Shown here: piece after piece, positions 12,842 through 55,474 of the stretch
Layout of the letters: each line of letters starts with the position of its first letter
Position numbering within the stretch: the first letter of the stretch is position 1
IMG/VR virus record: IMGVR_UViG_3300027901_000001
From: a virus
Reading direction: 5' to 3' (one strand)
DNA length: 64,000 nt
Notes under the pieces: model-generated
Database searches by the model: none
Told to the model about the DNA's origin: nothing
Seen by the model: the letters and a program-made list of their open reading frames with translations, nothing else
Translations under genes and position numbers: made by a program

Positions 12842-12877
12842 CTCACCAAATCTAATACGATGACAAGCGATAGTCAA
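12842..12877 (-). promoter_or_regulatory. Sigma70-like promoter P2 (leaderless candidate)
   Basis: TTGACT-17-TAGATT-7 nt-ATG; -35 overlaps the upstream TGA. Confidence 0.65.
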
Positions 12878-13887
12878 GCCTCGCCGGGTATATCGAGCAC
12901 CAGCTTTTTCACCGGCACATCGCCTTTCCCCACCACCTGGTAATCCCGGATATGGCCAGCTTTGAGCGTCTGCACCAGATGGTTATCGTCGATAACGATC
13001 TTCCATACGTCCCGCGCCCGGCCACCGCCCAGCTCCCGGCTGATACCCACCGCCCGGTCCGGGTCGGTCGTCAAAAAGATATTGGTCGGCACCGTCCTGG
13101 CCCCCATGTACCGGCGGCGGTCCCTCACAGGGCGCGCCGTCCATAGGGTCAGTGGCCGCCCGCGCCGCTTGGTGGAACCTGGGCTCTTCAGCTCGCGCAC
13201 CAGGTCGAAATACTGGAGCTGCTCAACGGTGTCCTTGAAGAAATCCGGATCCCCGGCCTCCAGCACATCGTCTATTTCATCGACCTTGCCGTTCTTGGTG
13301 AACACGGTAAAGCCCGCGTCGCGCTTACCAACGGTCACGTAAAAAGATTCGGCAACGTCTTCTTTGGGCTCGCCGCTTGGCTTAATAACAACCGGAGGAT
13401 CCTGCCAAACGCGCATCCGGCGTGTGGCCGCCTGTATCTGAGCCAGCAGCTTCTGGGCATTCTTCTTGGTCCCATCAATGCGCTCTTTTGCCAGGCCGCT
13501 CAGCTCCTTTTTTATCTTCTCCGGCGTCTCCCCGCCCGCGACTTCCTCCCAACTCAGAATATCGCTCCGCAGCTTGAACAGCTCATCCCAGTTCTCCGGG
13601 GGTGCCTCCCCTTTAAGGGAAAGGTTGATGAGCGCCTTTAGTACCGCGTGGGCCGCATACACGTCACCCTTTTCCAGACGGTCGATGCTCTTGGACGGCC
13701 CCAAGTGTTTGCGCGCCCTGGCCGCCAACTTAGCCGGATCGTGTTTTGCGGCTCTCGCCTGCTCGATACGCCGAATAGAGCTGGCAATTAGGTCCTCTTC
13801 GTAATCCTTGGCCGCCTGCTCATACTTCTTCATGTCCACGGTGATGGACTCGACCAGCGCCGCGCTCAACTCCTCCGAGGGCCTCAT
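12874..13887 (-). CDS. Leader-bearing putative head-internal protein; C-terminal ADP-ribosyltransferase-like fold (tentative)
   Basis: N-terminus MRPSEELSAALVE; C-terminal LWTAR...IFLTTDPDRAV...VWKIVID...DYQV. Confidence 0.45.
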   Translation of the reverse strand: MRPSEELSAALVESITVDMKKYEQAAKDYEEDLIASSIRRIEQARAAKHDPAKLAARARKHLGPSKSIDRLEKGDVYAAHAVLKALINLSLKGEAPPENWDELFKLRSDILSWEEVAGGETPEKIKKELSGLAKERIDGTKKNAQKLLAQIQAATRRMRVWQDPPVVIKPSGEPKEDVAESFYVTVGKRDAGFTVFTKNGKVDEIDDVLEAGDPDFFKDTVEQLQYFDLVRELKSPGSTKRRGRPLTLWTARPVRDRRRYMGARTVPTNIFLTTDPDRAVGISRELGGGRARDVWKIVIDDNHLVQTLKAGHIRDYQVVGKGDVPVKKLVLDIPGEA

Positions 13888-17227: not shown

Positions 17228-17230
17228 TTT

Positions 17231-17740: not shown

Positions 17741-18671
17741 AATCGGCTCCTTTCTCCTTCCACTGCTGCCTAGCGGCCAGAGAACGATCCTCCAACCGCC
17801 TCACCTTCAGATACGCTAACAAAACCACACGCGCCTTGTTCACGCGGTCAAACTCTTCTTTTGCAGCCTCCGTAGGATTCCTATCCGGATGCAGCTCCGC
17901 CGCCCGCTTATTAGCTTTCCTCACCACAAACCTCTCGTCCGGAGGCTTTTTGAATACAAACCTTATCCCCAAAACTTCACAGGCCCACCTGGCATCGGCA
18001 ACGGTAATCGCCAACGCCTCTTCCATGTCCGCCCGCCGCTTTCCCTCTCGAATCCCATTAATAAGATCACTGATACAAAAACCAAGACCAACCTTGAATC
18101 GCCGGACAACCTCGTCCTTCACACTCCCATTGATGGCGTAGCCCTCACAAATTCTTTCCACAAAACCTTCAGCATTTTCCATCACCTGCGCCTTGAATAA
18201 ACGTGCGTCCGCGTCACCCTTTTTTTCTTCCTTCGCGTCTTTTTTTGTCTCCTCTGGCGCTTCTACGACTTCTTCTGGACCCGTTTCTCCCCGTAAACAT
18301 TGACTAACAACAAGTTCTAACGCCTTGGCAGTAGAAATCTTTTCTTTCCGAGAAAGTGCCAATATCTTTTTCCGTAACGAAATTGCCTTTCTAAGCGTAA
18401 CGGTCCCCTCATCGACCAGTCTAAACAGAACCTCCCCCCACCCACCTGTATTCAACAATATAGACCTACTTTGATAATGCGAAACCTTCCCCCCGAGAGT
18501 TTTACAAAGCCAGTCCCTTTTATAGATCCGCTTTCCATTTTCTTTTCCGCCCAGCATCGACCATAGGCCGTACATCTTGCCCTCAGCCTTGGCCAATTCG
18601 CGCTGGGACATTGACCCTTGCCCCTGCTTATAGCTATCAATCAGCTTAGCCAACTTTTCCTGTGCCGTCAT
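17724..18671 (-). CDS. Protein with C-terminal J-domain (DnaJ-like)
   Basis: RKANKRAAELHPDRNPTEAAKEEFDRVNKARVVL with the HPD motif. Confidence 0.75.
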   Translation of the reverse strand: MTAQEKLAKLIDSYKQGQGSMSQRELAKAEGKMYGLWSMLGGKENGKRIYKRDWLCKTLGGKVSHYQSRSILLNTGGWGEVLFRLVDEGTVTLRKAISLRKKILALSRKEKISTAKALELVVSQCLRGETGPEEVVEAPEETKKDAKEEKKGDADARLFKAQVMENAEGFVERICEGYAINGSVKDEVVRRFKVGLGFCISDLINGIREGKRRADMEEALAITVADARWACEVLGIRFVFKKPPDERFVVRKANKRAAELHPDRNPTEAAKEEFDRVNKARVVLLAYLKVRRLEDRSLAARQQWKEKGADYASEG

Positions 18672-19662: not shown

Positions 19663-19670
19663 CGTCCTCC

Positions 19671-21435: not shown

Positions 21436-21472
21436 AACCCGGCCTCGCCTGGACAGGGGCCGGGTTTTTTTA
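21436..21472 (+). terminator. Rho-independent terminator
   Basis: AACCCGGCCTC-loop-GGGGCCGGGTT followed by a T-run, at the convergence of + and - genes. Confidence 0.85.
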
Positions 21473-21991
21473 TGCCGCCGAACTCTCCCAGACGGTGACC
21501 TCGCCAAATTCGTCCCGACGCTTCGTCCGCTTGGGCCTGTGGTCGAATATCAGGTCGGAAGACACGCGCTTCGCGCCCTTGGCCGTCTGTACCTCGCAAT
21601 AGTAGTGGCCGCCGTGGTAGGTCCGCTCCACCCGCGAAATCGTCCCCTGGATGGGCTTCTGGTCGACCTGGCCAACGAGAGCCCAGACCTTCTCACCCTC
21701 CTTTGGAATACGGCGCTGGTCGAAGAAGCTGCCCTTGTTTCTGGCCTCCTCCAGCCCCTCCCGAATCCTCTTCTTCATAATGCCTTCGGCGTGATCGAAG
21801 GTGGCGCGACGCCCCAGGTTAAACTCCATACCGCGCCAATCCAGATAGAAATTCTTACCGCGCTTGAATATCACGGCCTTGTTACCACCGAACACTCCCG
21901 CATAGCGCGCCCCCTGGGAATAGTGCGTCGATCCTTCTACTTTCTTCCAGGACTCATGGAGAGCCCCGACAAGCTGAGAGGAGAAGGACAT
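21470..21991 (-). CDS. Leader-bearing two-domain protein; second domain SH3-like
   Basis: MSFSSQLVGALHE; linker GLEEAR; PKEGEKVWALV..GTISRV..CEVQT. Confidence 0.7.
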   Translation of the reverse strand: MSFSSQLVGALHESWKKVEGSTHYSQGARYAGVFGGNKAVIFKRGKNFYLDWRGMEFNLGRRATFDHAEGIMKKRIREGLEEARNKGSFFDQRRIPKEGEKVWALVGQVDQKPIQGTISRVERTYHGGHYYCEVQTAKGAKRVSSDLIFDHRPKRTKRRDEFGEVTVWESSAA

Positions 21992-21995: not shown

Positions 21996-23228
21996 TTAGC
22001 TCTCGCCCCTCGACCGCGCTATCTCCGCCTTGGCCGCCGATAGCTTCTTCGGCTTGAAGTACATATCGCGCTCGATCGCCTGCACGCCCTTGTACTTCGC
22101 GCCCTCCATCTCCTTCAGTGAGGAGTAGCCCAGCTCCCAGCCGTGGCCGGTGTTGGCCGCGCCGAACATGGTGTCGTCCCCGTCAAACTCGGTGATCAGC
22201 CAGTAGCCCATAGCCATGTACGGGCTGAAGAGCTTGAGATAGACCATCGGATCCTTTTCCTTCTCCTGGGAGTAAAGTGGCGGCAGCTTTTTCCGAACGG
22301 ACCCGATGACGAGCTTCTGCTTGCGCTCAGTTAATTCGGTATGATTTGCGTCACTCGCGTCATTCAGCTCGGTCCGTAGCTCCGCGATGCGCTTCTCCCG
22401 GATCTCCGGAAACGGCGAGCTGGTGGCGTCCAGCCGGTCGATCTCGGCCTGGATACCCTCTTGCTTCTTCGCCTTCTTGCCCTTGAACATGGACGCCTTG
22501 ATGCGAAGCCACTTGCGCTCCCGCGCCTCGACCCTGAAGCGGTGAATGGGAGGACCGCCGCCGTAGCTGATGGAGAACTTCTCTCCCTTGCCGCCGCCTC
22601 CGGCCGCCGCCTTCTTCGAGCCACCGCCCTTCACCTTCACGATGTCCAGCGGAGACACGCCGACCGTGCCGGTGTCGTCCCACTTCACATAGACCAGGCC
22701 GCCGCCCGGCCCCGACATATAGTGCATCTTGCCGCGAGGCCCGGCGATCGTTGTGACGGTGCCCTCACCGCCCTTGTCGGGCAACCTCCTCCGGTGATCG
22801 GCGGAGTACAACATGAAGCTGGCCGGGTTGGGCTGGAACTTCACCCTGGTGCCGGGACGCGGCACGCCCTTGCGGCCCTCGGCCAGTTCGAGCTGCTCTT
22901 CCTGGTACGAAGGATAGGCGACCATGTTCTTCGCCACCTTGTCTTTGATCAGCGCCCTCCACTCCTTGCGCCCGAGAGCCCCGTGCGACGGATGACGGGT
23001 TGCCTTCTTCAGAGCAGCAATCATCGCCTCGCGTGACGGGAAGGTCTTGACCTCGTACCCGGCGAAAGCTCCACCCGGCGCTCCGCGAATTGCCATCTGC
23101 TTGGCCTTGGGGTTTTTCTTCAGGTCCATCATCTGGGCTATGGAGATGATCTGGGTACCCCGCGCCTCCTCCAACCGCATCTCGCGGTCGATGTCCGGGG
23201 CTCCGTAATAATCGAATCGTCCGTACAT
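21996..23228 (-). CDS. Multidomain protein with SH3-like and C-terminal DUF2958 domains
   Basis: LPPLYSQE..DPMVYLKLFSP..WLITE..FG..GWELGYSSLKEM; linkers RLEEAR and LELAEGR. Confidence 0.8.
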   Translation of the reverse strand: MYGRFDYYGAPDIDREMRLEEARGTQIISIAQMMDLKKNPKAKQMAIRGAPGGAFAGYEVKTFPSREAMIAALKKATRHPSHGALGRKEWRALIKDKVAKNMVAYPSYQEEQLELAEGRKGVPRPGTRVKFQPNPASFMLYSADHRRRLPDKGGEGTVTTIAGPRGKMHYMSGPGGGLVYVKWDDTGTVGVSPLDIVKVKGGGSKKAAAGGGGKGEKFSISYGGGPPIHRFRVEARERKWLRIKASMFKGKKAKKQEGIQAEIDRLDATSSPFPEIREKRIAELRTELNDASDANHTELTERKQKLVIGSVRKKLPPLYSQEKEKDPMVYLKLFSPYMAMGYWLITEFDGDDTMFGAANTGHGWELGYSSLKEMEGAKYKGVQAIERDMYFKPKKLSAAKAEIARSRGES

Positions 23229-23240: not shown

Positions 23241-23777
23241 CTAGTAAAACCTGAAGTCCGTACTCCGCAAAAGCCCGTGAAGTGCCGTCAGCGCATTCAC
23301 AGCCATAGAAGCATTCATGTTGGCGCTGTAGTAGGTGTCGCTGGCATCCTGTTTCCCGCCCGACTGTGGGAGAGGACCGCCCTTTTTACTGAACCGATCC
23401 ATCTGCGTGACGGCGTCCTTGAACTCATCGTAGTGTCGCTTCGACTTGTCCGGCAGCTTCTCTGGATCAATAAGACTGGCCATCTGGCGTACAGACTTTC
23501 TCACCTGTTCAGCGGCCCGGTGCTTCTTGTCCGCAAACTCCTTGGCCTTGGGCAACAGCTCCCTTTCAACCGCTGCGGGATCGCCTGCCCCGTGGTGAGC
23601 GCGTCTCAAACGCCCCGTTTCCGACTCTGCCCCCCCCATATTCCGGAGTTCCCCATAAGCCTTCATCGCCCGCTTGTTGGTCCGCTTCATGGCCCTTTCA
23701 TCGAAACCGTAAGGACCTACAGTCCCGGCCCCCGAACCCTCGGAAAGCGCCTCGCTGAGCTGTTCTGAAACCGACAT
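23241..23777 (-). CDS. Leader-bearing helical protein (start MSVSEQL)
   Basis: MSVSEQLSEALSEG; AGGAG RBS. Confidence 0.7.
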   Translation of the reverse strand: MSVSEQLSEALSEGSGAGTVGPYGFDERAMKRTNKRAMKAYGELRNMGGAESETGRLRRAHHGAGDPAAVERELLPKAKEFADKKHRAAEQVRKSVRQMASLIDPEKLPDKSKRHYDEFKDAVTQMDRFSKKGGPLPQSGGKQDASDTYYSANMNASMAVNALTALHGLLRSTDFRFY

Positions 23778-23785: not shown

Positions 23786-24748
23786 CTATGATTTCCCCTT
23801 CATCATGTTGTCGACGTACCACTGGGTGTAGTAGTCCGGCACCAGCTTCAGCCCGGTCTGGTCGATGACGTGATCCCGGCTCACCTGGTCAGGCATCTCG
23901 CGCTCCACCCACCACTTCAGATCGTCCTTCTTGTGGAAGGTCCACTTGGTCTTGGAGCCGCCCTTGCGCGGGTCGCCGATGGACACCACCCATCCGGAGC
24001 CCGCCTTGGCAATAAACCACATATGGGGCGCGGGCTTCTTCTTGACGGTGGACAGCTTCCCCGTATCTCCCCTGGCCTCCGAGAGCACCCGGTAGGCCCA
24101 AGTCGCCCCGGACTTCTTGCGCTCGATCTTCCCGTCGTCCTCCAGCTCGTCCAGCCCCCAGTGGATGTACTTGTAGTCACCGCCGGGGACAGCCGCCGGA
24201 TATCGCTTCTTGACCGCATTCAGAATCGCATCCCGCTTCTTCCATTTACCGCCGGAAAGCGCGTCCCGGATGGCCTGGAGCAGGTTGGTCTTGCCAACGG
24301 GCACGTCCTTCAGGCTGGCCTCGAACAGGTCGTCCAGGTCTCTACACCCAGAAAGCATTACCTCCCAATCCAGGCTCTCCATCACACCTTTGAACCGGGC
24401 CATGACCTTCGGCGGAACGTCCTTTTCCTGAATGCGCTTCCACTCCACGCCCAGCGTCGGATGGTACACGCTGTCCTTCTTCGGCTTACTGGGCTTCCTC
24501 CCCACGTGCGCGTCCACGCGGTAGCCCGTGGCGTTGCCGTTCTTCAACGTTCCGGTGCGGTAAAAATAAGCCTCATCTCCCAAGCCCAACCCTATCTTGT
24601 AAAACTCTCCGGCCCCAGCCGTCGGATCCTTGCCCGCCTCCCGTCCTGCTCGTTGCAGCGCCGCGTATCCACCACCGTAGGTCGCCGCTGGGTAACGCCG
24701 CCGGGCTTCGGTGGTCACGGCCTCCTGGAGCTGCTTGGATAGTGACAT
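23786..24748 (-). CDS. Leader-bearing three-domain protein with central winged-helix-like domain
   Basis: MSLSKQLQEAVTTEA; linkers DLDDLFEA and VLSEAR. Confidence 0.72.
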   Translation of the reverse strand: MSLSKQLQEAVTTEARRRYPAATYGGGYAALQRAGREAGKDPTAGAGEFYKIGLGLGDEAYFYRTGTLKNGNATGYRVDAHVGRKPSKPKKDSVYHPTLGVEWKRIQEKDVPPKVMARFKGVMESLDWEVMLSGCRDLDDLFEASLKDVPVGKTNLLQAIRDALSGGKWKKRDAILNAVKKRYPAAVPGGDYKYIHWGLDELEDDGKIERKKSGATWAYRVLSEARGDTGKLSTVKKKPAPHMWFIAKAGSGWVVSIGDPRKGGSKTKWTFHKKDDLKWWVEREMPDQVSRDHVIDQTGLKLVPDYYTQWYVDNMMKGKS

Positions 24749-24758: not shown

Positions 24759-24983
24759 CTAGTCCGCGAAACCGGCCCGCTTCCACTTCTCGGCCAGCCC
24801 GGCCAACGCCTTCCAGCCGTGCTCGGCCGTCACCTTCTTCTGGTCTGCCTTCAGGTGCTCCGAGCCCTTGCCGGAAAACTCGGCTATCCACTTGTCGTCC
24901 GATATCCGGCGAAGGGTGATGTTGTAGCTCACGGCCTCTTCGAGCTGCGCAGCGGCCTCCTGGAGCTGTTCGGACAAACCCAT
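24759..24983 (-). CDS. Leader-bearing small protein
   Basis: MGLSEQLQEAAAQLEEA. Confidence 0.7.
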   Translation of the reverse strand: MGLSEQLQEAAAQLEEAVSYNITLRRISDDKWIAEFSGKGSEHLKADQKKVTAEHGWKALAGLAEKWKRAGFAD

Positions 24984-29332: not shown

Positions 29333-30755
29333 CGCCGCCTCCATTCTCCTTCACTAGATTCTTCATAGAGGGCAGTATTTCAGCCCATTCCGCAAGTGCT
29401 GTCGCCGCTTTTCGCGCTGAAACACCCAAACGCGCAAACGCCCGCATTCCCCGGTTCACCTGCACCTTGAATTTGAACCTCCGGAACCGCCTGTCCCAGT
29501 CGTCCATCAATCGCCCTTCTTCTTCAGCTCTCGGATCAGCCCACGCATGATCCTGATGGCATCTTGCAAAACAGTCGGAGGCACGGGCACGGTGGCCGTC
29601 TTGCGGCTCGCCCACTTCGTGCCCGTCAACCACCGAAGGAAATCCTCCGCCTGCTTTATCCAGTTGGGGTCCTCATCCTCCCAGGACTCCAGCTTCACAC
29701 GCCGGTCCAGGTCCGCCAGGTCCACGGTCACCGCACCCTCCGGATACAACGCAAACTCGTACAGCTCCTTGCCATCCGATATCAGCAAGAACGTGGCGCG
29801 CTTGCCGTCCACCAGGACACGCTCACCGAGCTGGAGCGCCTTCGCCACTTTCGAGGCCCTGTATGTCTGCGCCCACCCCATCAGCGGTTCATCGCAGCGA
29901 TGCCACGCACGATGTCGGACAGCTTGTACGGCCTGGTCAGCCGCAGCTCGCCCGGATTGCACACGCGCTCCAACTCCTCCACCCTGGCGCGCACGATGTC
30001 CAGGGCCTCCGCATCATTGCGACCCTCGCCCTTCACGGCCAGGTCGCCCTTGGTGAGCAGCCAGAAGGTGAAGCCCTGGTCGTCCAGCCGATAGTCGCTG
30101 TGCACGGCCACGGTCCAGCCCATGAACCGCAGATCGCTCGGATCGCCGCGCTGGGCCACGTCGATTTCAACGCGGTCCTTGTCCATCTGCGCACACATGG
30201 CGTTGGCAAACCAGCCGACCATCAGGTCCGGGTCGATCTGCTCCAGCGTCCAGCGGTTCTTCTTTTTGAGCCGCTCGAATTCCGCTGCCCAGACCGTAGC
30301 GTCGGTCGTTTCGAGCAGGTTCACGTCGTCTCCCGTGGCCGGTTCCGGCTCCGCGACCTCGCGCACCGCCACCTCCGGCTGGCACGGCGAGATATCGTTT
30401 TCGACCTCGATACCGGAGTGCCGGATGGCACGCTCCAGATCGGCAAATCCGACATCGCCGGTATCCTTATGGTGCAGGTGCTCCCACACCCTGATTACCT
30501 CTGACAGCTTCAGCTTCGTCATGGCCCCTCCTTCTGCGCCGCCGGTACATCGTGCTTGCCGCACACCCGGCAGATGTTGGTCTTGTCGCGGCCCATAATG
30601 TCTCTGAAATAGGTCTCCGGATGGTCGCACACCGCCTGAATCGCCTCCGTTAGCTTCTTGTTGTAGGCCAGCTTCAGGTCCAGCAGCCGCCGCTCCTCTC
30701 GCAAGGCCCGCATCTGGGCCTCAATCTCCTCCCTGGTGGTCGGCATCTCGGGCAT
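29286..30755 (-). CDS. Run of small hypothetical genes (within ORFs 29286..29633, 29507..29962, 29881..30522, 30519..30797)
   Basis: Tiled minus-strand ORFs; true starts internal. Confidence 0.5.
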
Positions 30756-31696
30756 CATCCACCCCCGGCCTGGTTCTTGTAGGGAAACGCCGGACACTCG
30801 TACTGCCCCTTTTCGGCAGTCCGAAGACGGCAGTCGTCTGCCGCCTCCAACGCCTGTTGGAGTCTGTTTTCGAGCTTTCCGTGGGCTACCGCTACTCTAT
30901 CGAAAGCCGTGTTTACCGTGAACAACTCGGCCCGCGCCTGCTCCAGCTCGATTTCGAGCCGCTCGACCTTCCTGTCCTTGGACCGTAGCTCGACCGCCTC
31001 GTCAAAGCTCCAGTCGGCGATCAGCTCGCGCAGTTCCTCCAGTTCCTCATGGGTGGTAGTGAGCTGGTCGCCTTCGACCCTTACGTGCTCGTGCCACCAG
31101 GCCCGGATGGCCTCCCGCTTGTCAAACTCGGCATGGTAGGCCCGCTCCATCTTGTCGCGTTCCTGCGTCACCGCATCCATCGTCTGCTGCGAATAACCGG
31201 TCCCAGCATCGTCCAGTTTCTTCAATCGCGCTAGAGCCTCTTCTCGTTCCAGCTCCGCCTGCCGCGCCAGGTCGTTCTGCTGGGCCAGCACCTTGGCGTT
31301 GGCGGCGAGATCCGCCCGCGCCTTTTCAAGATCACGCCTGGGCTTACAGTGAAGATGCCCATCATTATCGCAAATCGCATCCTTACAACGAGCGCACATC
31401 TCCGTATTGAAGGCCCGCGCTTCCTTGAACAGGCGCAGTATCCGCTCCAGCTCCCTTTCCAGAGGGTAGGGGGCGCTATCATCGTCCGGCCGCCGCCTAA
31501 AGCTCAACACCGACAGCGCCTTGTCGAGCTGCTCCGGCAGGCTCATCCAGACGCCCAGCGTCGCCATCATCCGGTAGACGGTGTTCTGCGGCAGCGGCCC
31601 TTGCAGCTCCGCCTTCAGCAGGTCCTCGACCTCCTCCGGGGTCATCGGCCCTCGCGGATCACCTATCATCACCACCTTCTTTCCCACCCAAAACAA
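30755..31696 (-). CDS. Coiled-coil hypothetical protein
   Basis: 313 aa, heptad-rich, CARC..C..H..C. Confidence 0.7.
   Translation of the reverse strand: MFWVGKKVVMIGDPRGPMTPEEVEDLLKAELQGPLPQNTVYRMMATLGVWMSLPEQLDKALSVLSFRRRPDDDSAPYPLERELERILRLFKEARAFNTEMCARCKDAICDNDGHLHCKPRRDLEKARADLAANAKVLAQQNDLARQAELEREEALARLKKLDDAGTGYSQQTMDAVTQERDKMERAYHAEFDKREAIRAWWHEHVRVEGDQLTTTHEELEELRELIADWSFDEAVELRSKDRKVERLEIELEQARAELFTVNTAFDRVAVAHGKLENRLQQALEAADDCRLRTAEKGQYECPAFPYKNQAGGG
30829..30842. repeat. Near-copy of the palindrome (1 mismatch)
   Basis: GGCAGTCGTCTGCC. Confidence 0.7.
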
Positions 31697-48978: not shown

Positions 48979-49457
48979 AGTGCCCTCCGGCGCATCTCGG
49001 GGTCAACTGGTCGGGTCAGGGCTTCCAGAGGCGTCAGACCCAGTTTCAGGCGCTTGTAGACGGTGCTACGACCGAGCCCGCGCCGCGCCGCGTGCTCCAA
49101 AAATGTGGCCACCATTCCATTCAGTTTCACCTGACCTCGCTCGCCCGCCCGCGCCCGCGTACGACATCGATCGCTGCAATACTGCCGTCCCGGAACCGCA
49201 GGTCGCCCGCACAAGCCGCACGGATGGGTACCTTGCCGTTCCAGTCGCCGGGTCACCGGACCGCCTTCCAAAACCTCCTGGAAAATCAAAATCTCGACAT
49301 CCAGCTCCGAGTCAGCCTCCAGACGCTCAATCGCCCGTCCACGGCATTCCGCACAGTAAATAGCCCCCGGCTCGGCCGTCTCGCCGCATCCCAAGATGGC
49401 ACATCGCACCGGCTGGAAATATCGGGCAGTCGACTGCCTCCGGCGCGCCCCTAGCAT
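48969..49457 (-). CDS. Zn-finger protein with C-terminal homing-endonuclease-type HTH
   Basis: CAILGC..YCAEC, CGLC..YCSDRC, LGRSTVYKRLKLGLTPLEALTRPV. Confidence 0.65.
   Translation of the reverse strand: MLGARRRQSTARYFQPVRCAILGCGETAEPGAIYCAECRGRAIERLEADSELDVEILIFQEVLEGGPVTRRLERQGTHPCGLCGRPAVPGRQYCSDRCRTRARAGERGQVKLNGMVATFLEHAARRGLGRSTVYKRLKLGLTPLEALTRPVDPEMRRRALCR
49425..49438. repeat. Dispersed palindrome copy 7
   Basis: Exact; about 20 bp downstream of the P8-driven ATG. Confidence 0.95.
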
Positions 49458-49491
49458 CCAGCTATCTTATACGATAGCCAGCGTTGGTCAA
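49458..49491 (-). promoter_or_regulatory. Sigma70-like promoter P8 (leaderless candidate)
   Basis: TTGACC-16-TAAGAT-6 nt-ATG; GCTATC/GATAGC inverted repeat; -35 overlaps the upstream TGA. Confidence 0.6.
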
Positions 49492-50138
49492 GAGGTGGCC
49501 GCGTCCACCAATTTCCAGACCACCCCGATCATCTGGAGCAACGGCATCGCCATCAGCTTCTTCTGGTTCTCGGGCTTCAGCGCATCGTACACCTGAACCA
49601 CGTGGCTCGCAGTCCACAGGTCCACCATCTTGCCCTGAATCTTGCGCGCCGTCTTTTCCTTCACGATCTGGCGCATCTGGTCAATGACAGGCTTTTTCGC
49701 CCTACCCTCGTCCAGCTCTTCGGCCGCCCCGGTGAACAGCACGTCCAAGTCGACATTATCAGATTCTTGAGTGCCTCCTCCGGCCATAACGGAATACCGA
49801 TTACCCCGTCGGGAAATATACACCCCGATTCCTTTTCCAACGCCTCGGGAAACATCTCGCCTGTCTTGCAAATCCGATGGCCAAGCAACAGCAGGAGCCA
49901 AACCGTTTGCCTTCAGCACTCGATTTACCACCTGTACCACCTTCTTAAAGCTATCAAATTCGCGCATTTCATACTTACCAACTGTACGCCCCAAAAATGT
50001 CTGTTTCGGCTCACCGCCCCCAAAACCTGCCTTGCCGAAAGCCTTGTTCAATTTGGCTGTTTCAGCGGACTCTCCTTTCTCCTCCAACCCTCTGGCCTCG
50101 GAGCCCACCGCTTCCTGTAATGCGTTTGCAAATCCCAT
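49488..50138 (-). CDS. Leader-bearing two-domain putative head-internal protein
   Basis: MGFANALQEAVGSEARGLEE; linker DLDVLFTGAAEELDEG; VDLWTA..VYDAL..ENQ module. Confidence 0.72.
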   Translation of the reverse strand: MGFANALQEAVGSEARGLEEKGESAETAKLNKAFGKAGFGGGEPKQTFLGRTVGKYEMREFDSFKKVVQVVNRVLKANGLAPAVAWPSDLQDRRDVSRGVGKGIGVYISRRGNRYSVMAGGGTQESDNVDLDVLFTGAAEELDEGRAKKPVIDQMRQIVKEKTARKIQGKMVDLWTASHVVQVYDALKPENQKKLMAMPLLQMIGVVWKLVDAATS

Positions 50139-50153: not shown

Positions 50154-50792
50154 TCAAGGCACTTCCGATGCCGCCTCGCTGAACAGAGCGTTCAAATCGA
50201 CATCCGACGAATCGCTCTCATGTCGCCGGGAACCCGCGAAAAATCTGGTAACGCTTCCCTCCAAGGCAGCCTTCAATTGGGTCGCCTGAGAACGATTGAG
50301 AACACCGAGTGTAACCAGCTTCTTCACGTCCCACTTCTTCCACGCATTTTCGATATCGCTGGCCTTGTCCAGCATATCGTGGGCCTGATCCCGCAAATTG
50401 CGGACAGCAGAATCAATCAGAGAGGCAAAATATGCCGTTGATCCTTTGCCCCGTCCTGCCTCCTCCAAGCTACGGTTTCCCTCCCGTTCCCCGTCAGAGT
50501 CTTCACGTTTTCCGCGAGCCTTTCCGCTAAATGGCGGAGCATCGATCGGCATAACAATCGAACCCGGATTTTCGCGGGCTAACTGCGCGGCAGCGCTGGA
50601 GGTTTTTGCATAAAGGTAGTCGATTCGGTCACGAAGTTTGACCTCGACTTTGAAACGATACCCCTTCTCCTTCATCTTTTCGGCCTCGCGCTTGAACTCG
50701 GCCGCTGTCGAAGGAGTCTTCCCTTTCCCGGCTTCCTCCAGTCCCCCGGCCTCGAAGCCCACCGCTTCTGCCAGTGCGTTTGCCAGTCCCAT
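50154..50792 (-). CDS. Leader-bearing two-domain putative head-internal protein
   Basis: MGLANALAEAVGFEAGGLEEA; linker SLEEA; DVDLNALFSEA. Confidence 0.72.
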   Translation of the reverse strand: MGLANALAEAVGFEAGGLEEAGKGKTPSTAAEFKREAEKMKEKGYRFKVEVKLRDRIDYLYAKTSSAAAQLARENPGSIVMPIDAPPFSGKARGKREDSDGEREGNRSLEEAGRGKGSTAYFASLIDSAVRNLRDQAHDMLDKASDIENAWKKWDVKKLVTLGVLNRSQATQLKAALEGSVTRFFAGSRRHESDSSDVDLNALFSEAASEVP

Positions 50793-50795: not shown

Positions 50796-51914
50796 TTACT
50801 CCTTTGCGCCAACCCTCCGCGCCTTGGACATCACGCTATAAATCACCTGGAGCACCTCGTAGATGCCCATTCCCTCCATGCGCTCCTGGTTGTCATCGTT
50901 CAGGCCGTCGTACATCTCGACCGCCACGTTCGCCGAAAACGGGTCTACCAACACGCCGTTGATCAGCTTCGGCTCACTGCTATCCGCCACGGCCCGCAGT
51001 TTCTCAATGGTATCGTCGCCTTCGGCCTCATCGGTCATCAGCTTCAGGCGATCGGCCGTGATACTCTCGCCAGCGATGTTGGGCAGCGCTGGATCGTGGC
51101 CAACAATCTGGATGGACGTAGCCATCTCGTAGTCGCCCGGCATCTTGCCGGTAACGAATGAAAACTGGCCGCTATGCGGGCTGTACTTGAGCACCGAGGT
51201 CCCGACCAGCGAGGTATGGCCCGTAGGGTTGCTGAGATTGCTCCGTGGAGCCACGTCGTGAGTATCTTGGGGAGTGGTCGCCCCGGACGGCACGGGGCTC
51301 TGTGGTGTCGGATAGCCCCCCGCAGGTCCGAAATCTCCGTACACCTGCTGACGAATGGCCTCGGGCTGAACCACGGCAGAATCGCCGGATTTGCCGATAA
51401 CACGGAACACGGTACCTCCCAGGTCGACGGCCATCCCCGGTTCGATCTTGCCCATCGCCGGAACGAAATCGCCGTAGCTCTGGAGGTCGGTAGAGCCCCC
51501 GAACGGGTCGGCCTGCTCACCCAGACTCTCGGTTGTGGTCCATTTCCCGCCGTAACTCGGCATTTCGCTCCGGTACCGGCCGCGACGACACACGTTCTCA
51601 ACGTGCTGGATCGATCGGTCGATAACTTCCCGCAGCTCCCGCAAGGCTGACAGCGGCGCGCCCTCGAATACCTCGAACACCTGTTTGCGGTCCTCACCGG
51701 TCTTCTTGCCCGCCCTGGTTGCATCCTGGTTGGCAATTCCGAATGCCGTCGACAGCGCATCCAGCTTCTTCTGAAGCAAGGTGGTGAGGTTGGTATGGGT
51801 CTTGAGCAGCTCCAGCGCCTCATCGACGGGCTCCTGGAGCTGCTCCGTCATCTGCTGGCCCGAAGGTTTCTTGCCCTCGTCCAGGATCGAACGGATTTCA
51901 TCTGAAAAAGCCAT
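50796..51914 (-). CDS. Leader-bearing multidomain protein (start MAFSDE)
   Basis: GGAGGAG RBS; MAFSDEIRSILDEG; C-terminal VDPFSA..MYDGL..DNQ module. Confidence 0.72.
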   Translation of the reverse strand: MAFSDEIRSILDEGKKPSGQQMTEQLQEPVDEALELLKTHTNLTTLLQKKLDALSTAFGIANQDATRAGKKTGEDRKQVFEVFEGAPLSALRELREVIDRSIQHVENVCRRGRYRSEMPSYGGKWTTTESLGEQADPFGGSTDLQSYGDFVPAMGKIEPGMAVDLGGTVFRVIGKSGDSAVVQPEAIRQQVYGDFGPAGGYPTPQSPVPSGATTPQDTHDVAPRSNLSNPTGHTSLVGTSVLKYSPHSGQFSFVTGKMPGDYEMATSIQIVGHDPALPNIAGESITADRLKLMTDEAEGDDTIEKLRAVADSSEPKLINGVLVDPFSANVAVEMYDGLNDDNQERMEGMGIYEVLQVIYSVMSKARRVGAKE

Positions 51915-51931: not shown

Positions 51932-54900
51932 TTAGGCGACCGCCTCCAGCCAGCCTTTGCCCTGAGAATACACCCCGTCGCCGATGATGGCGATATCTTC
52001 GTCCTCCCACATCTGCTCGAAATCGGGGTCCGAAGCCCACGGCAGCACGACGATATGCAAGCCATGTTCAACGCCCTCCTGCATCTTCATCAGCCGCCGG
52101 GTCACCTCATTCATGCGCCGCGTTACGCTGGCGATCATCTTGAAAAGCCCAACTGAAACCTGGTCCCGGAAGTCCAAATAGACCTGCACATAAGCCGACA
52201 ACCGATCCGTGAGCTTGTCGCCCGTGATGACCGACTTCTGGTTCAGCAGCTTCTCACCCTCCCGGATAGCGACCGACCCCAGCTCCGCGCTCTCCCGGAT
52301 CACGGAATTCATCCTGGCTGTAACCTGGAGCACCTCGCGCACCAGATTCGTAGCGGTGATCTCCCTGGTAGGCACAGACGGCCCCTTACGCTTCCCGGCG
52401 CGCCGGGTTGAGATTCTGGCCATCTTGGCCAGCCGCGTCATGGCGTTGCGGCCCTCTGCGAACGGCCCGTACAGCTTCTTGGTCTCCGCCTCGAAAGACC
52501 GAGCAGCGTTGCCCAGGGGCGACCGCTGCATGGCGCGCTCGACCCCCGCCGTCCGCCGGATCCGCTCGGTCTCCTGGGCCGCGTGCGCCAGCTCTTCGGC
52601 CACCTCCTCCAGGTGGTAGACGGACCGGACGAACTTCCTGGTCTGGTCCACCGATCGCTCCAGCTCGCGCCGCAACTCCTGGTTGTCACTCCGCAGCTCA
52701 CCCACGGCCGCAGTGGCCGGAGCACGCTCGGACAGCTCTCCCTCGGTGACGCCGTACCTCTTCAGCAGGTCGCCGATCTTCTTCCCGGTGGACTTCCTCT
52801 GGGACAGATCCAGAACCGTGCGCGCCCGGCCCTGGTAGTTGCTGATATCGACATCCCTGGCCAGGGCTGCCTCGCCCAGTCCCAGCAGCAGCGCCGCGAC
52901 CACGGCCGCCTTCCCGGCCTTACTGAGCACGCCCTCGTCCAGCCCCTCCAGCTCCTCCAGCACGGCCTCCAGATCGGCATCGGTGCAGGACAGCACCGAC
53001 AAGTCGAACCAGTCCTCCTCGATCGGCCCTTCCATCAAAGCCAGGTGCAGATCGTTGGCCATCGACGCCGCGAGCTTCATCCCCTTGCTGTCGTGCTGTT
53101 TCAGGAACTTGACGATGTGCTTGCCCACCGCGTCGACGGACCCCTTCATGGGCTTGAAGCCGATGTCCTTCTGGTTGCTGTAGTGGACGGTGACCTTCAC
53201 GTCGCCATCGGCGTCGCCGTCCTTCTTGAAGGGCGCGACCTTGAACTTCACCTGCTTCGGACAGTTGACGATCTCGCCGGTCTTGGAACCCTTCGGCACG
53301 TCCGAGTACTCGATGATGACCTGCGGCGTGATGTACTGCGGCCCGAACCGGCAGAAAAAGTGCTTTTTCTTGAGCTGGGGCAGCCCCTTGGTCACCGTCT
53401 GGCACAGCTCCAGGGCGTCGCTCCAGCGGGCCTCGATCAGCTCGATGCCCTCCGTCTTCTTGGGAGGCTCTAGTTTACCGGTATAGAAGTCGGCGTCCCA
53501 TCCATCGGTGTAGAGTTTCTTCAGCTTCTCGGCCTTCGTTTTACTCATAATGTAACCGCGTTCGCGGTTCGTCCACTTACCCTTGAGAGCATCCGCGAGT
53601 CGAGCTGCCCGCGTCTTGTAACCGGTAGCAGAAGGGGCTCTCACGAGCATCTTATTCTTGGCATACCTAGCGGGAGAAATCTGGGGAGGTGCCTCTTCAG
53701 CTCTCTCCCAGAACAACTCGGCCAACTCAATACCTTCGGCCAGCTTGTAGGACGCCGTGCGGCTCACCCGCTTGCGGCCGGGCGCGGCCTGCACCAGCTC
53801 CAGCGTGCCCTTCTTGACGAGCTTCTTGAAGAAGCCGGTCACTACCTGGGGGCTGAGCCCGAACGCATACCCCAGGTCCAGCACGGATATCGTGCGGCCC
53901 GGCTTCTCCTTCATAAACGCTACCAGCTCGGCCTCGGTCGGCAGCTTTCCCTTCTCCGCCTCGTCCAGCTCGGCCGCTTCTACGGCCAACACGAAGTCCC
54001 CATATCCGTGCTTGACTACCTTGCCGGACCTGTCGGCGTAACCGATATGCGTGAGCTTCCCATCCCGTCGCAGCTTGTGAATGAATTGCTGGGCCACGTG
54101 CCTGAAATGGTCCTCATCGGCCCCTCTTCCGAACGTAGGCTTGAACTTCTTGTAGTACTGATCCCTGACCACCATATAGATGGCGTGCTTGAGATCCCCT
54201 TCCGTCCACTGCTTCTTCTTTTTGACCACCCTCGTAATAGGAGCAATGGAGAAGTCCTTGATGGTCGGCTCGACAGGAGCATCATCTCCCGTCTGACGCC
54301 CTTCTTCTAGCTCGACCTCCTCACGCACCAGCTCGGACCGGCCCTTCTTCTCCATGTTCTTAATCAGCTCCTTGACGAGCTTGCCTTCCTTGTTGTCGTA
54401 CACCTGGTGCGACCGACCGCTCTGGCCCTTGAACTTCTTGCCGCGCATCCGATCAAACTCGATGCTCTTGCCGTTGCCTTCCAGAGAAAACTCGCCGAAG
54501 CCCATGTGCTTGAGCTTCATGCCCGGCATGGCATCGCCGATCGAATTCAGGAAGGCGGTGTCGGCGTGGTAACTCTTGCCGTCGTAGTAGTGCTTGCCCT
54601 TCTCGGTGAGCAGCTCCTCCTCGATGGCCTCCTCGAACAGATTGTCCAGGCCCATGAGGTCCTCTTCCTTCTTCCGGGGCTTCAGCTTCGCCGCGTACAG
54701 CTTCTCCAGCACGGGCATCACTTTCTCCCGGAAGTACCGACCGGGATTGGCCCGCGCCCGCTTCATCTCGTCACGCGGAATCCCGGCCCCGCGAAAGGCC
54801 ACCTTCGCCACCTTCAGAACCTTCTTGGCCCAGGTCCGGGTCATCTGGAATCGGCGCATCAGATCGGACTCGCTGACGTTGCCTTCCTTGCTGGACACGA

Positions 54901-55474
54901 AATCGGAGATGGCGATGATGTCGGCCGGGAGCGAGATGGACTCTTCCAGCTCAGCCTCAAACAGATCGTTGAGGTCCTCCGACTCGAAATAGACGGGCTT
55001 GTGCTGCAACCCCTTCCTCTTGAACCGAGGATCGTGCTCGATGTTGAGCGGCGCAACGGCATGGGGCTCGTCCCTGTCGCTCCACAAAACCTTCGGCCAC
55101 ATCTTGCCGCCCCCCATCTTCACGAAGCCTACTACCTTCCCGTTGATCGGACCTCCGGCCTGCATCCCGATGTTCCGCAGAAACTTCCCGGTGTACCGAA
55201 CAATATCCCCTTTCTTGAACTCCTTACCGGACCGGCTGCCTTCCTCCAGCGCCCCCGCGAGCTGCCCGGCCAAGCCTTCCTTCTGGTACTTTTTCTTCAG
55301 CTCGGGCTCCTTGTCGTTCGTGGTGCTACCGGTCGACTTGTAGTGCGGCTTCGCACCCTTTTTATACATGTCCCAGGCCAGAGCAAAAGCCTTCTCGGTT
55401 GGCATGTGCCTCTTCATGGCCTTCACGGTCCCGGACCAGCCGGGCGGCGCTTTTTCGGTCAACGGTATGGTCAT
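51932..55474 (-). CDS. About 1180-aa multidomain (polyvalent-like) protein with repeated acidic L-x-E linkers (start MTIPLTE)
   Basis: ChaB-like N-terminus (KAFALAWDMYKKG), SH3-like, two wHTH-like modules, hydrophobic segment, coiled coil. Confidence 0.8.
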   Translation of the reverse strand: MTIPLTEKAPPGWSGTVKAMKRHMPTEKAFALAWDMYKKGAKPHYKSTGSTTNDKEPELKKKYQKEGLAGQLAGALEEGSRSGKEFKKGDIVRYTGKFLRNIGMQAGGPINGKVVGFVKMGGGKMWPKVLWSDRDEPHAVAPLNIEHDPRFKRKGLQHKPVYFESEDLNDLFEAELEESISLPADIIAISDFVSSKEGNVSESDLMRRFQMTRTWAKKVLKVAKVAFRGAGIPRDEMKRARANPGRYFREKVMPVLEKLYAAKLKPRKKEEDLMGLDNLFEEAIEEELLTEKGKHYYDGKSYHADTAFLNSIGDAMPGMKLKHMGFGEFSLEGNGKSIEFDRMRGKKFKGQSGRSHQVYDNKEGKLVKELIKNMEKKGRSELVREEVELEEGRQTGDDAPVEPTIKDFSIAPITRVVKKKKQWTEGDLKHAIYMVVRDQYYKKFKPTFGRGADEDHFRHVAQQFIHKLRRDGKLTHIGYADRSGKVVKHGYGDFVLAVEAAELDEAEKGKLPTEAELVAFMKEKPGRTISVLDLGYAFGLSPQVVTGFFKKLVKKGTLELVQAAPGRKRVSRTASYKLAEGIELAELFWERAEEAPPQISPARYAKNKMLVRAPSATGYKTRAARLADALKGKWTNRERGYIMSKTKAEKLKKLYTDGWDADFYTGKLEPPKKTEGIELIEARWSDALELCQTVTKGLPQLKKKHFFCRFGPQYITPQVIIEYSDVPKGSKTGEIVNCPKQVKFKVAPFKKDGDADGDVKVTVHYSNQKDIGFKPMKGSVDAVGKHIVKFLKQHDSKGMKLAASMANDLHLALMEGPIEEDWFDLSVLSCTDADLEAVLEELEGLDEGVLSKAGKAAVVAALLLGLGEAALARDVDISNYQGRARTVLDLSQRKSTGKKIGDLLKRYGVTEGELSERAPATAAVGELRSDNQELRRELERSVDQTRKFVRSVYHLEEVAEELAHAAQETERIRRTAGVERAMQRSPLGNAARSFEAETKKLYGPFAEGRNAMTRLAKMARISTRRAGKRKGPSVPTREITATNLVREVLQVTARMNSVIRESAELGSVAIREGEKLLNQKSVITGDKLTDRLSAYVQVYLDFRDQVSVGLFKMIASVTRRMNEVTRRLMKMQEGVEHGLHIVVLPWASDPDFEQMWEDEDIAIIGDGVYSQGKGWLEAVA

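What the first reader, a model, noticed from the sequence alone, without database searches (positions are those of the whole stretch)
12874..55474. Shared N-terminal leader ending in L-x-E on at least 8 unrelated proteins: putative capsid-targeting and protease-processed cargo system
Seen N-termini: MRPSEELSAALVE|S (13887), MSFSSQLVGALHE|S (21991), MSVSEQLSEALSE|G (23777), MSLSKQLQEAVTTE|A (24748), MGLSEQLQEAAAQLEE|A (24983), MGFANALQEAVGSEARGLEE (50138), MGLANALAEAVGFEAGGLEE|A (50792), MAFSDEIRSILDE|G (51914). An internal copy, GLAGQLAGALEE|G, occurs in the 1180-aa protein. The downstream domains are unrelated. Established: T4 internal proteins carry a ~10-aa capsid-targeting sequence removed by the gp21 protease at (I/L)-x-E, and phiKZ gp175 cleaves head proteins after x-x-E. 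Inference: this is a distinct targeting peptide that loads a diverse set of proteins into the head for injection, with the genes scattered in at least three loci among early-type genes.
Basis: partly seen in the sequence, partly recalled or inferred. Interest (0 to 1): 0.82.

Follow-up and report, generated by a model that had tools for sequence, protein, structure and literature searches.

The report
Shared capsid-address leader on phage proteins
About 25 otherwise unrelated proteins of an uncultured 192-kb T4-like phage begin with the same 13-residue peptide ending in a T4-protease-type cut site, most likely an address tag that loads them into the phage head, so the phage's packaged (and possibly injected) protein set could be read from its sequence.

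Summary
All eight N-termini and the internal copy are present. Genome-wide, about 25 proteins carry M-x-(L/I/F)-(S/A)-x-Q-L-x-E-A-(L/V)-x-E, cleanly separated from 12,350 other start sites. Selection acts on the peptide, not the DNA, and the mature parts are unrelated ORFans.

The capsid-targeting interpretation is supported, but only indirectly:
- The phage has a T4-type head module with one gp21-family (Peptidase_S77) protease fused to a scaffold-like domain.
- 23 of 25 leaders carry (L/I/V/M)-x-E ending at residue 9 or 13, and the two positions compensate (p=0.005).
- Three cargo domains recur in other contexts, each starting just after an L-x-E.
- One cargo domain also exists without a leader.
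- A relative (G004) has a different leader with the same architecture.
- Cargo is basic in G000 and G004, as in T4 internal proteins.

This is a large, sequence-distinct version of the known T4 capsid-targeting-sequence system. Cleavage, packaging and injection are untested, and expression timing is unknown. Other first readers of this scan flagged the same leader in overlapping windows of this genome.

The parts
12874..13887 (-). Leader-bearing gene (337 aa, genome g82211). Leader MRPSEELSAALVE at 13849-13887, predicted site LVE13|S. This is a weaker match to the consensus.
21470..21991 (-). Leader-bearing gene (173 aa, g74107). Leader MSFSSQLVGALHE, site LHE13|S. Mature part has pI 10.0 and is an ORFan.
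21996..23228 (-). 410-aa protein with a C-terminal DUF2958 domain. It carries the second N-terminal module, MYGRFDYYGAPDIDREMRLEE|A. This module recurs on g183913 and on about 15 metagenomic proteins and also ends in (M/L)-x-E.
23241..23777 (-). Leader-bearing gene (178 aa, g72321). Leader MSVSEQLSEALSE has both LSE9|A and LSE13|G. Mature pI 9.8.
23786..24748 (-). Leader-bearing gene (320 aa, g71350). Layout: leader MSLSKQLQEAVTTE|A, then domain 1 (ARRRYPAATYGG...), then junction VLSE|ARGDTG, then domain 2 (LSTVKKKPAPHMW...). Both domains recur elsewhere behind other N-terminal modules or with no leader.
24759..24983 (-). Leader-bearing gene (74 aa, g71115). Leader MGLSEQLQEAAAQLEE|A.
30755..31546 (-). 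Doubtful member (263 aa from an internal ATG of a 296-aa ORF), MSLPEQLDKALSV. It has no Shine-Dalgarno sequence, no L-x-E at residue 9 or 13, and an acidic mature part.
49488..50138 (-). Leader-bearing gene (216 aa, g45960). Leader MGFANALQEAVGSEARGLEE with sites LQE9|A and LEE20|K.
50154..50792 (-). Leader-bearing gene (212 aa, g45306). Leader MGLANALAEAVGFEAGGLEE with sites LAE9|A and LEE20|A.
50796..51914 (-). Leader-bearing gene (372 aa, g44184). Leader MAFSDEIRSILDE|G is the weakest seed (score 10). Its C-terminal 64 aa are related to g45960.
51932..55474 (-). 1180-aa ORFan with an internal leader copy, EGLAGQLAGALEE|G, at residues 66-78 (window 55241-55279), behind a 65-aa N-terminal segment. 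A segment (residues 267-386) is shared with the ~1000-aa proteins of G001 and G002; the G001 one starts with a leader.

Best explanation
The 13-residue acidic, amphipathic N-terminal peptide M-x-(L/I/F)-(S/A)-x-Q-L-x-E-A-(L/V)-x-E is most likely a capsid-targeting propeptide of the T4 CTS type.

Inferred mechanism:
1. During prohead assembly, the hydrophobic face of the helix (positions 3, 7, 10/11) docks the protein onto the scaffolding core. Here that core appears to be the ~370-residue charged, coiled-coil-like C-terminal extension of the gp21-family protease, plus neighbouring core proteins.
2. After the shell closes, the Peptidase_S77 protease cuts after Glu in (L/I/V/M)-x-E. It removes the leader at E9 and/or E13, or a few residues later. 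It also cuts L-x-E|A junctions between domains of multi-domain cargo, trims the capsid protein at an invariant L-x-E, and chops up the site-rich scaffold.
3. The released, mostly basic ORFan proteins stay in the head with the DNA and are probably delivered into the host at infection.

Shown here: the family exists, selection is on the peptide, the tag is modular, an S77 protease is present, the site pattern holds, and a different leader occurs in a relative.

Inferred: scaffold binding, cleavage, packaging and injection.
For: 1. Family and significance: 25 of 12,350 start sites with a clean score gap. 26 of the 34 best six-frame hits are exactly N-terminal. The family is recovered with no prior motif.
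2. Selection on the peptide: Leu7 uses six codons, Ser4 uses both TCN and AGY, Ala10 uses four codons, and upstream DNA is not conserved.
3. Unrelated cargo, with no Pfam or PHROG hits.
4. T4-type head module: Portal_T4, Gp23 capsid protein, and a single Peptidase_S77 protease with ELDHP His and GVSSRG Ser aligned to T4 gp21 structure 5JBL.
5. Site logic: 23 of 25 leaders have (L/I/V/M)-x-E ending at residue 9 or 13. Eight of ten lacking L7-x-E9 have the 11-13 site, against three of fifteen with it (Fisher p=0.005).
6. Homology boundaries fall at the predicted cut in three independent domains:
   - TTE|ARRRY against LQE|ARRRY behind a 130-aa module.
   - (L)xE|(A/T)xGDTG before the LSKVKKK domain in 10 of 10 in-clade homologues against 1 of 18 distant ones.
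   - LTE|A against LLE|A for the g150523 domain.
7. Modularity: the LSKVKKK domain occurs with the leader, with another leader, with no leader at the extreme N-terminus (12 proteins), or inside large proteins.
8. Clade conservation with cargo turnover: G001 and G002 have about 10-13 leaders each, but only 6 of 25 G000 cargoes have homologues there.
9. G004 (capsid 49% identical) has a different 12-member leader, M-x-h-h-E-x-I-D-x-L-L-E. It has the same hydrophobic register (3, 7, 11) and the same terminal h-x-E, and its scaffold part cannot be aligned to G000's.
10. Capsid protein has an invariant L-x-E 13 residues before its conserved block in five genomes. The scaffold-like region has 4.8 sites per 100 aa against a proteome median of 1.7.
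11. Cargo is basic: median pI 9.8 against 6.7 (p=6e-4) in G000 and 9.4 against 5.2 (p=4e-5) in G004. T4 IPII and IPIII have pI 9.6-9.7.
12. Precedent: the T4 CTS is 10-20 aa, with residues 4 and 7 for targeting and 8 and 10 for processing; T-even internal proteins share only the CTS (PMC9026906, PMC3012670, PMC5694885).
Against: - There is no direct evidence of cleavage, virion association or injection. The phage is uncultured.
- Orthologues of the two conserved structural-module members (g6539, g187201) in G001 and G002 keep the leader core but lack a Glu site at residue 9 or 13. So some leaders may be uncleaved or may do something else.
- The site compensation is not significant in G001 and G002 (p=0.4).
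- The basic-cargo trend is absent in G001 and G002.
- G005 has the protease but no detectable leader family.
- Expression timing is unknown: there is no T4-type late promoter, and most members lie among non-structural genes.
- The leader has no sequence similarity to the T4 CTS.
- The AlphaFold model of a leader protein was too poor to show the leader's conformation.
Confidence: 0.7

Rival explanations
1. The leader is an uncleaved N-terminal amphipathic helix. It binds a common partner unrelated to the capsid, such as a phage or host chaperone, a membrane surface or another compartment. The L-x-E pattern is then a by-product of an acidic helix.
For: The leaders are significantly amphipathic. 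Orthologues of g6539 and g187201 keep the core without a Glu site. Most members lie outside the structural module. Basic cargo is not universal.
Against: This reading does not explain four results: cargo homology starts exactly after the E in three independent domains; positions 9 and 13 compensate; internal L-x-E|A junctions precede shuffled domains; and the same site is invariant in the capsid propeptide. No partner candidate was found.
Confidence: 0.12
2. The leader is only a protease-removable pro-sequence. It might keep the cargo inactive or mark it for timed processing by the S77 protease. Targeting into the head is then done by other parts of the proteins, or does not occur.
For: The L-x-E logic and the boundary evidence concern cleavage, not targeting. 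In T4, the processing and targeting determinants are separable (PMC9026906).
Against: Positions 3, 4, 6, 7 and 10 are conserved well beyond what a three-residue site needs. gp21-family proteases act inside proheads (established for T4; PMC5694885), so substrates have to be inside. Unrelated cargoes share nothing else that could target them.
Confidence: 0.1
3. The leader is an N-terminal degradation or turnover tag (degron) read by a host or phage protease, limiting the lifetime of a set of accessory proteins.
For: The tag sits at the N-terminus of many non-structural ORFans. Expression timing is unknown.
Against: Internal copies are followed by conserved domains. Members lie inside the head module directly after the capsid gene. 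No known degron class resembles the motif (my own knowledge). The match to the resident S77 site is a simpler explanation.
Confidence: 0.04
4. The leader is a double-glycine (bacteriocin-type) or other secretion leader that directs export from the infected cell.
For: It superficially resembles the LSxxELxxIxGG consensus (my own knowledge). Four of 25 leaders have Gly-Gly nearby.
Against: The complete genome has no Peptidase_C39. Gly-Gly is absent in 21 of 25 leaders. The leaders have no hydrophobic core or basic n-region, with net charge -1.4, so they are not Sec or Tat signals. Cargo of up to 377 aa (1180 aa with the internal copy) is atypical for such leaders.
Confidence: 0.02
5. The conservation is at the nucleic-acid level: a translation-initiation enhancer, a regulatory RNA element or a mobile recombination cassette like the promoter-stem-loop cassettes of T4-type phages.
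For: Mobile regulatory cassettes shuffle genes in T4-type genomes (PMC2839356, listed).
Against: Synonymous codons vary freely at the conserved residues, and Ser uses both codon families. Upstream DNA is not conserved. Functional-looking copies occur internally and in homologues of very different nucleotide sequence.
Confidence: 0.02

Closest known systems
T4 capsid targeting sequence (CTS) on internal proteins IPI, IPII, IPIII and Alt, removed by the gp21 prohead protease (Mullaney and Black 1996, as reviewed in PMC9026906, PMC3012670 and PMC5694885)
   Same: - A short N-terminal peptide shared by otherwise unrelated, mostly basic proteins.
- The peptide ends in (L/I)-x-E followed by a small residue.
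- The genome has a homologous Peptidase_S77 protease, a gp20 portal and a gp23 capsid protein.
- The distance between the conserved core and the cut varies: 10 or 19 residues in T4, 9 to 20 here.
- Cargo turns over quickly between relatives.
   Different: - The leader sequence is unrelated (MKTYQEFIAE against MSLSEQLQEALxE).
- About 25 cargoes (8-9% of genes) against a handful in T4.
- Internal copies and L-x-E|A junctions between domains suggest polyprotein-like cargo.
- A second, 19-residue leader class is present in the same genome.
- The protease is fused to a scaffold-like domain, whereas T4 has separate gp21 and gp22.
- No experimental proof exists here.
Propeptides of head and ejection proteins of giant phages phiKZ, 201phi2-1 and SPN3US, cut by gp175/gp245 after (S/A/G)-x-E or A-x-E (PMC5694885, PMC9026906)
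   Same: Many (8-19) head proteins are processed after Glu by a gp21-related protease. The propeptides are thought to target proteins into the prohead, and propeptide regions contain several sites.
   Different: Those propeptides are mostly longer than 100 residues and belong to paralogous families. They are not one short consensus peptide on unrelated proteins, and the P3 preference differs (small residue against Leu/Ile/Val). This phage has a conventional T4-like head module and a genome under 200 kb.
CTS-like internal proteins in hypervariable loci of T-even phages (reviewed in PMC9026906 section 3.1 and PMC3012670)
   Same: Diverse, fast-evolving, often anti-restriction proteins that share only the targeting peptide.
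   Different: Those phages are close T4 relatives that use the T4 CTS itself. Here a distant, uncultured marine-sediment clade has its own peptide, and a sister lineage (G004) has yet another.
Encapsulin cargo-loading peptides (my own knowledge)
   Same: A short peptide tag directs diverse cargo into a capsid-like shell.
   Different: Encapsulin tags are usually C-terminal, are not cleaved, and serve a non-viral compartment. No encapsulin is involved here.

Membership tests
T4-type CTS / gp21-processed internal head proteins | The genome encodes a gp21-family (Peptidase_S77) prohead protease with catalytic residues intact. | tested here: met
   PF03420 scores 62-66 bits; there is a single copy. 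His in ELDHP and Ser in GVSSRG align with T4 gp21 (5JBL).
T4-type CTS / gp21-processed internal head proteins | T4-type head module (gp20-like portal and gp23-like major capsid protein with a cleavable N-terminal propeptide). | tested here: met
   Portal_T4 at 183 bits and Gp23 at 204 bits. An invariant L-x-E precedes the conserved mature block in five genomes. Cleavage itself is not shown.
T4-type CTS / gp21-processed internal head proteins | A short (10-20 aa) N-terminal peptide shared by otherwise unrelated proteins. | tested here: met
   About 25 members, with mature parts unrelated by BLASTP.
T4-type CTS / gp21-processed internal head proteins | The leader ends in a (L/I)-x-E cleavage motif. 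| tested here: met
   23 of 25 leaders have the site ending at residue 9 or 13, and the two positions compensate (p=0.005). The pattern is less clear in G001 and G002.
T4-type CTS / gp21-processed internal head proteins | The leader is proteolytically removed in the prohead. | not testable with these tools
   Support is indirect only: cargo homology starts right after the Glu in three domains.
T4-type CTS / gp21-processed internal head proteins | The leader is necessary and sufficient for incorporation into the head. | not testable with these tools
   This needs a packaging assay. The phage is uncultured.
T4-type CTS / gp21-processed internal head proteins | Sequence similarity of the leader to the T4 CTS (MKT[YF]xEF...). 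| tested here: not met
   The T4 ipI, ipII and ipIII N-termini read from NC_000866 share only a hydrophobic pattern and the terminal h-x-E. So this is an analogous, and possibly homologous, system with a different peptide.
T4-type CTS / gp21-processed internal head proteins | The mature cargo is basic and associates with DNA. | tested here: inconclusive
   Median pI is 9.8 against 6.7 in G000 and 9.4 against 5.2 in G004. There is no difference in G001 or G002.
Double-glycine leader / PCAT secretion substrates | Gly-Gly at the cleavage site and a C39 peptidase transporter. | tested here: not met
   Gly-Gly is near the leader in only 4 of 25. PF03412 finds nothing in the complete genome, while the control genomes score.
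Sec/Tat signal peptides | A basic n-region followed by a hydrophobic core (and a twin-arginine motif for Tat). | tested here: not met
   Net charge is -1.4, large hydrophobic residues occur only at positions 3, 7 and 11, and there is no h-region.
Giant-phage (phiKZ/SPN3US-type) long propeptides | Propeptides of about 100 residues or more on paralogous inner-body or ejection proteins, cut at (S/A/G)-x-E. | tested here: not met
   Leaders here are 9-20 residues with Leu/Ile/Val at P3, and the cargo is not paralogous. The MYGRF-type module with ~130 aa before the cut in P0003 and P0006 is a partial parallel.

The most novel reading that the evidence does not exclude
This uncultured clade may have turned the T4 capsid-targeting principle into a general, programmable loading system.
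- It would use at least two leader classes per genome and lineage-specific leader 'dialects' that co-evolve with the fused protease-scaffold.
- It would load 25 or more rapidly exchanged proteins, about 9% of the gene content. These include multi-domain polyproteins that the head protease cuts into separate effectors at L-x-E|A junctions.
- The head would then act as an effector-delivery organelle on the scale of a secretion system.
- The leader alone would identify the injected proteome, probably a large reservoir of unknown anti-defence proteins, in metagenomic phages.
Probability: 0.35. Interest if true: 0.8.

Novelty: new variant of a known kind. Interest (0 to 1): 0.62.

Why it matters
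- If the leader is a capsid address tag, it gives a sequence-only way to list the proteins that an uncultured phage packs into its head and probably injects. That set is normally found only by virion proteomics, and in T4 it includes anti-restriction proteins.
- About two dozen ORFans in this genome, and more in its relatives, would become candidate early-acting effectors or anti-defence proteins.
- The lineage-specific leader versions, paired with divergent protease-scaffold fusions, offer a natural experiment on how targeting peptides co-evolve with scaffolds.
- Short cleavable tags of this kind are also useful for loading foreign proteins into phage heads, as has been done with the T4 CTS.

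Tried and rejected
- **Nucleotide similarity:** both leader clusters found nothing in the phage collection.
- **Cargo annotation:** Pfam and PHROGs were empty for the leader proteins, apart from UvrD, one weak sub-threshold Pfam hit (g72321, Erythro_esteras, 16 bits against a 26-bit cut-off) and two unknown-function PHROGs. The ESM Atlas gave no usable hits for the 1180-aa and 377-aa proteins.
- **Structure:** the AlphaFold2 model of g71350 with a 7-sequence alignment had mean pLDDT 47, with only residues ~240-300 confident. The fold search gave nothing above background (best Z 4.4). The cargo's function and the leader's conformation remain unknown.
- **Singleton:** g183103 has no homologue among 5.8 billion proteins.
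- **Short-HMM search of relatives:** it found only some of the leaders because of a coarse pre-filter. I replaced it with full-genome PSSM scans.
- **Expression timing:** TATAAATA occurs once in the genome, and sigma-70 and terminator scans around both window clusters were at shuffle level.
- **Tests that did not replicate:** the pI contrast and the site-compensation test were not significant in G001 and G002. No leader family was found in G005.
- **Readings rejected:** DNA-level repeat, double-glycine or Sec/Tat secretion leaders, and paralogy of the cargo.
Full report
**Setting**

The window is the reverse strand of positions 32098-96097 of a single 191,623-bp virus record. The record has direct terminal repeats and is rated 100% complete. 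My crude codon-model gene caller finds about 296 genes, 267 of them on one strand. No nucleotide match exists in the phage collection. The capsid protein is at most 34% identical to any deposited phage. Earlier notes of this scan call it an uncultured marine-sediment T4-like phage.

**Observation**

The internal copy EGLAGQLAGALEE lies at residues 66-78 of the 1180-aa protein.

- A position weight matrix trained only on those eight, applied to every ATG/GTG/TTG of the genome in all frames, found 14 more gene starts. After iteration, 25 of 12,350 sites score at least 10, 23 score at least 20, and the next best scores 6.5.
- A scan not anchored on the start codon covered 299,644 six-frame windows. 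It put 26 of its 34 best hits exactly at an N-terminus. It added two members with a leader one residue shorter or longer (genome 97927 and 151939). It also found internal copies in the 1180-aa protein and in g128347.
- Clustering all N-termini by BLOSUM score, with no prior motif, recovers the family as the largest cluster.
- The consensus is M-x-(L/I/F)-(S/A)-x-Q-L-x-E-A-(L/V)-x-E, with L7 and A10 nearly invariant.

Two hits are doubtful:
- Window 30755-31546 starts at an internal ATG without a ribosome-binding site and has no cut site.
- A UvrD helicase on the other strand has orthologues that lack the motif.

**Peptide or DNA?**

Leu7 is encoded by six different codons, Ala10 by four, and Ser4 by both the TCN and AGY families. 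The 30 nt upstream share only a Shine-Dalgarno sequence. The constraint is therefore on the peptide.

After the leader is removed, the 25 proteins have no BLASTP similarity to each other. The single exception is a weak 64-residue C-terminal match. Apart from the helicase, they have no significant Pfam or named-function PHROG match: one weak sub-threshold Pfam hit and two unknown-function PHROGs.

**The protease**

The head module lies at genome 173.7-187.5 kb, outside the window. It encodes:
- a Portal_T4 portal;
- a Gp23-family capsid protein;
- one Peptidase_S77 (T4 gp21 family) protease of 544 residues.

The protease aligns with the T4 gp21 structure 5JBL and keeps the His of ELDHP and the Ser of GVSSRG. 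Its last ~370 residues are a highly charged region with 4.8 (L/I/V)-x-E sites per 100 residues. The proteome median is 1.7, and composition-matched shuffles give 3.15 +/- 0.76. The adjacent core-position gene g178732 has 4.2 per 100 and ranks 7th of 218, while the capsid and portal proteins have 1.0 and 1.45. This is the pattern expected if the scaffold is degraded and the shell proteins are trimmed once, as in T4 (PMC5694885).

The capsid protein has an invariant L-x-E (QLQE60|D in G000) 13 residues before its conserved IFPVLRRVFPNLIA block in five genomes. The same block lies 29 residues into mature T4 gp23*.

**Site logic in the leader**

- The conserved core L7-x-E9|A10 is itself an (L/I)-x-E site in 15 of 25 leaders.
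- Of the ten that lack it, eight have (L/V)11-x-E13. Of the fifteen that have it, three also do (Fisher p = 0.005).
- Overall, 23 of 25 have a site ending at residue 9 or 13.

A requirement for at least one protease site explains this compensation. A purely structural helix does not.

**Homology boundaries**

Three cargo domains recur in different architectures, and each starts right after a predicted cut.

1. **Domain 1 of g71350.** It follows the 14-residue leader as TTE|ARRRYPAATYGG. In metagenomic proteins P0003 and P0006 it follows a ~130-residue N-terminal module as LELQE|ARRRYPAATYGG.
2. **The C-terminal domain of g71350 (LSxVKKKxAPHMW...).** In all ten in-clade homologues where sequence precedes it, it is preceded by (L)-x-E|(A/T)-x-G-D-T-G. 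That Glu belongs either to an internal linker or to the N-terminal leader itself. Only 1 of 18 distant homologues has such a site, and control windows have one 18% of the time.
3. **The g150523 domain.** It follows LTE18|A in the small protein and LLE130|A inside the 991-residue leader-bearing protein of relative G001.

**Modularity**

An exhaustive HMMER search found the LSKVKKK domain in four contexts:
- behind the type-A leader (about a dozen proteins);
- behind a different acidic amphipathic N-terminus;
- with no leader, starting 3-12 residues after the Met (12 proteins);
- inside large proteins.

The leader is therefore an add-on.

A second N-terminal module, M-(Y/F)-x-(R/K)-F-(E/D)-(F/Y)-Y-G-A-P-D-I-x-x-E-(M/L)-x-E, heads window gene 21996-23228 and g183913. 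It recurs on about 15 different metagenomic proteins and also ends in (M/L)-x-E at about residue 19.

**Relatives**

Thirty-one IMG/VR loci encode capsid proteins 41-88% identical.

- **G001 and G002 (77% capsid identity, complete genomes).** They carry about 10-13 type-A leaders each. Only 6 of the 25 G000 cargoes have any homologue there, so cargo turns over quickly.
- **G004 (49%).** It has a different family of 12 N-termini, M-x-h-h-E-x-I-D-x-L-L-E, with a clean score gap. It shares the hydrophobic register 3/7/11, the net negative charge and the terminal h-x-E. Its protease aligns with G000's only over the catalytic 227 residues, whereas G001 and G002 align over the full length. This is consistent with the leader co-evolving with the scaffold.
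- **G005 (41%, 38% GC).** It shows no family.

**Cargo properties**

Mature cargo is basic in G000 (median pI 9.76 against 6.71, p = 6e-4) and in G004 (9.44 against 5.24, p = 4e-5). It is not basic in G001 or G002. T4 IPII and IPIII, read from NC_000866, have mature pI 9.6-9.7.

**Comparison with the known system**

- In T4, IPII and IPIII start MKTYQEFIAE|A and IPI starts MKTFKEFTSTTTPVSTITE|A.
- The CTS is necessary and sufficient for head incorporation. Residues 4 and 7 are needed for targeting and 8 and 10 for processing (PMC9026906).
- T-even internal proteins are diverse anti-restriction proteins that share only the CTS (PMC3012670).
- Giant phages use longer propeptides cut after Glu (PMC5694885).

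The present system matches this principle and has the homologous protease. It differs in five ways:
- the peptide sequence;
- the scale (about 25 cargoes, 8-9% of genes);
- internal copies and inter-domain junctions;
- two leader classes in one genome;
- a fused protease-scaffold.

My literature searches found no description of such a family in a distant T4-like clade.

**Rivals**

- **DNA-level element:** excluded by codon variation.
- **Secretion leaders:** do not fit. There is no C39 peptidase, Gly-Gly occurs in only 4 of 25, and the leaders are acidic with no hydrophobic core.
- **Uncleaved interaction helix, cleavage-only pro-sequence, or degron:** these remain possible for some or all members. 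The structural-module members g6539 and g187201 lose the Glu sites in relatives.

**Limits**

Nothing here shows cleavage, packaging or injection. Expression timing could not be inferred.

**Verdict**

This is a new, expanded variant of the T4 capsid-targeting system rather than a new kind of system.

Noticed in passing
window 21996-23228 (-); L001:11914-12504 (+): A second shared N-terminal module, M(Y/H)GRF(D/E)(Y/F)YGAPDIDREMRLEE, heads two DUF2958-containing proteins in this genome. It also heads about 15 different metagenomic proteins (MFERFDFYGAPDIERELVE, MLEKFEFYGAPDIEQEMTE and others) and always ends in (M/L)-x-E at about residue 19.
   Followed up: partly
window 43434-43802, 43777-44079 and 44290-44667 (all -): Three neighbouring small genes begin with twin-arginine-like signal peptides (M..TRREFL(G/R)RSAP..AAGLVTPWFVEA; MTRRSFLRGVVALVAGG). 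This suggests Tat-exported phage proteins.
   Followed up: no
L006:5736-7817 (-), genome 141736-143817: A UvrD-type helicase on the minority strand has a ~17-residue N-terminal extension that resembles the leader (MSIGNILSEAKGE). Its orthologues in G001 and G002 have only a weak version, so this is probably a chance or degenerate match.
   Followed up: partly
G004 (IMG/VR relative; loci L059-L068), e.g. 12964(+), 12622(-), 7742(-), 182330(-): About ten ORF starts on both strands read MH(A/G/S)VHI(L/V)(K/L). This looks like a dispersed DNA repeat rather than a protein family.
   Followed up: no
genome 148898 (-), L006 about 12860-12898: A leader-like sequence, SVAEQLHEAVSS, sits at the very C-terminus of a minus-strand ORF. 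An earlier first-reader note flagged it too. Its meaning is unknown.
   Followed up: no
window 49395-49487 (genome 46611-46703) and 19663-19881 (genome 76217-76435); also L004:16454-16909 (genome 112453-112908), L001:918-988 (genome 172917-172987), L001:12505-12548 (genome 184504-184547): The 14-bp palindrome GGCAGTCGACTGCC recurs in intergenic regions, including directly after the main leader cluster. Several intergenic regions also carry TTGACAAAC-type sigma-70-like promoters.
   Followed up: no
window 18000-20000 and 62000-64000: These are low-GC islands (0.48 and 0.51, against ~0.60 for the genome). The first lies at a divergent-transcription point that contains the genome's only TATAAATA.
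   Followed up: no
L001:7789-9423 (+), genome 179788-181422: The prohead protease is fused to a ~370-residue charged, coiled-coil-like region, unlike the separate gp21 and gp22 of T4. Its own N-terminus contains SLEE16|D, a possible autoprocessing site.
   Followed up: partly
window 57051-59087 (-): A 678-aa protein next to the 1180-aa gene was described by an earlier agent as a RelA/SpoT-type toxin-like head cargo. It has no type-A leader.
   Followed up: no
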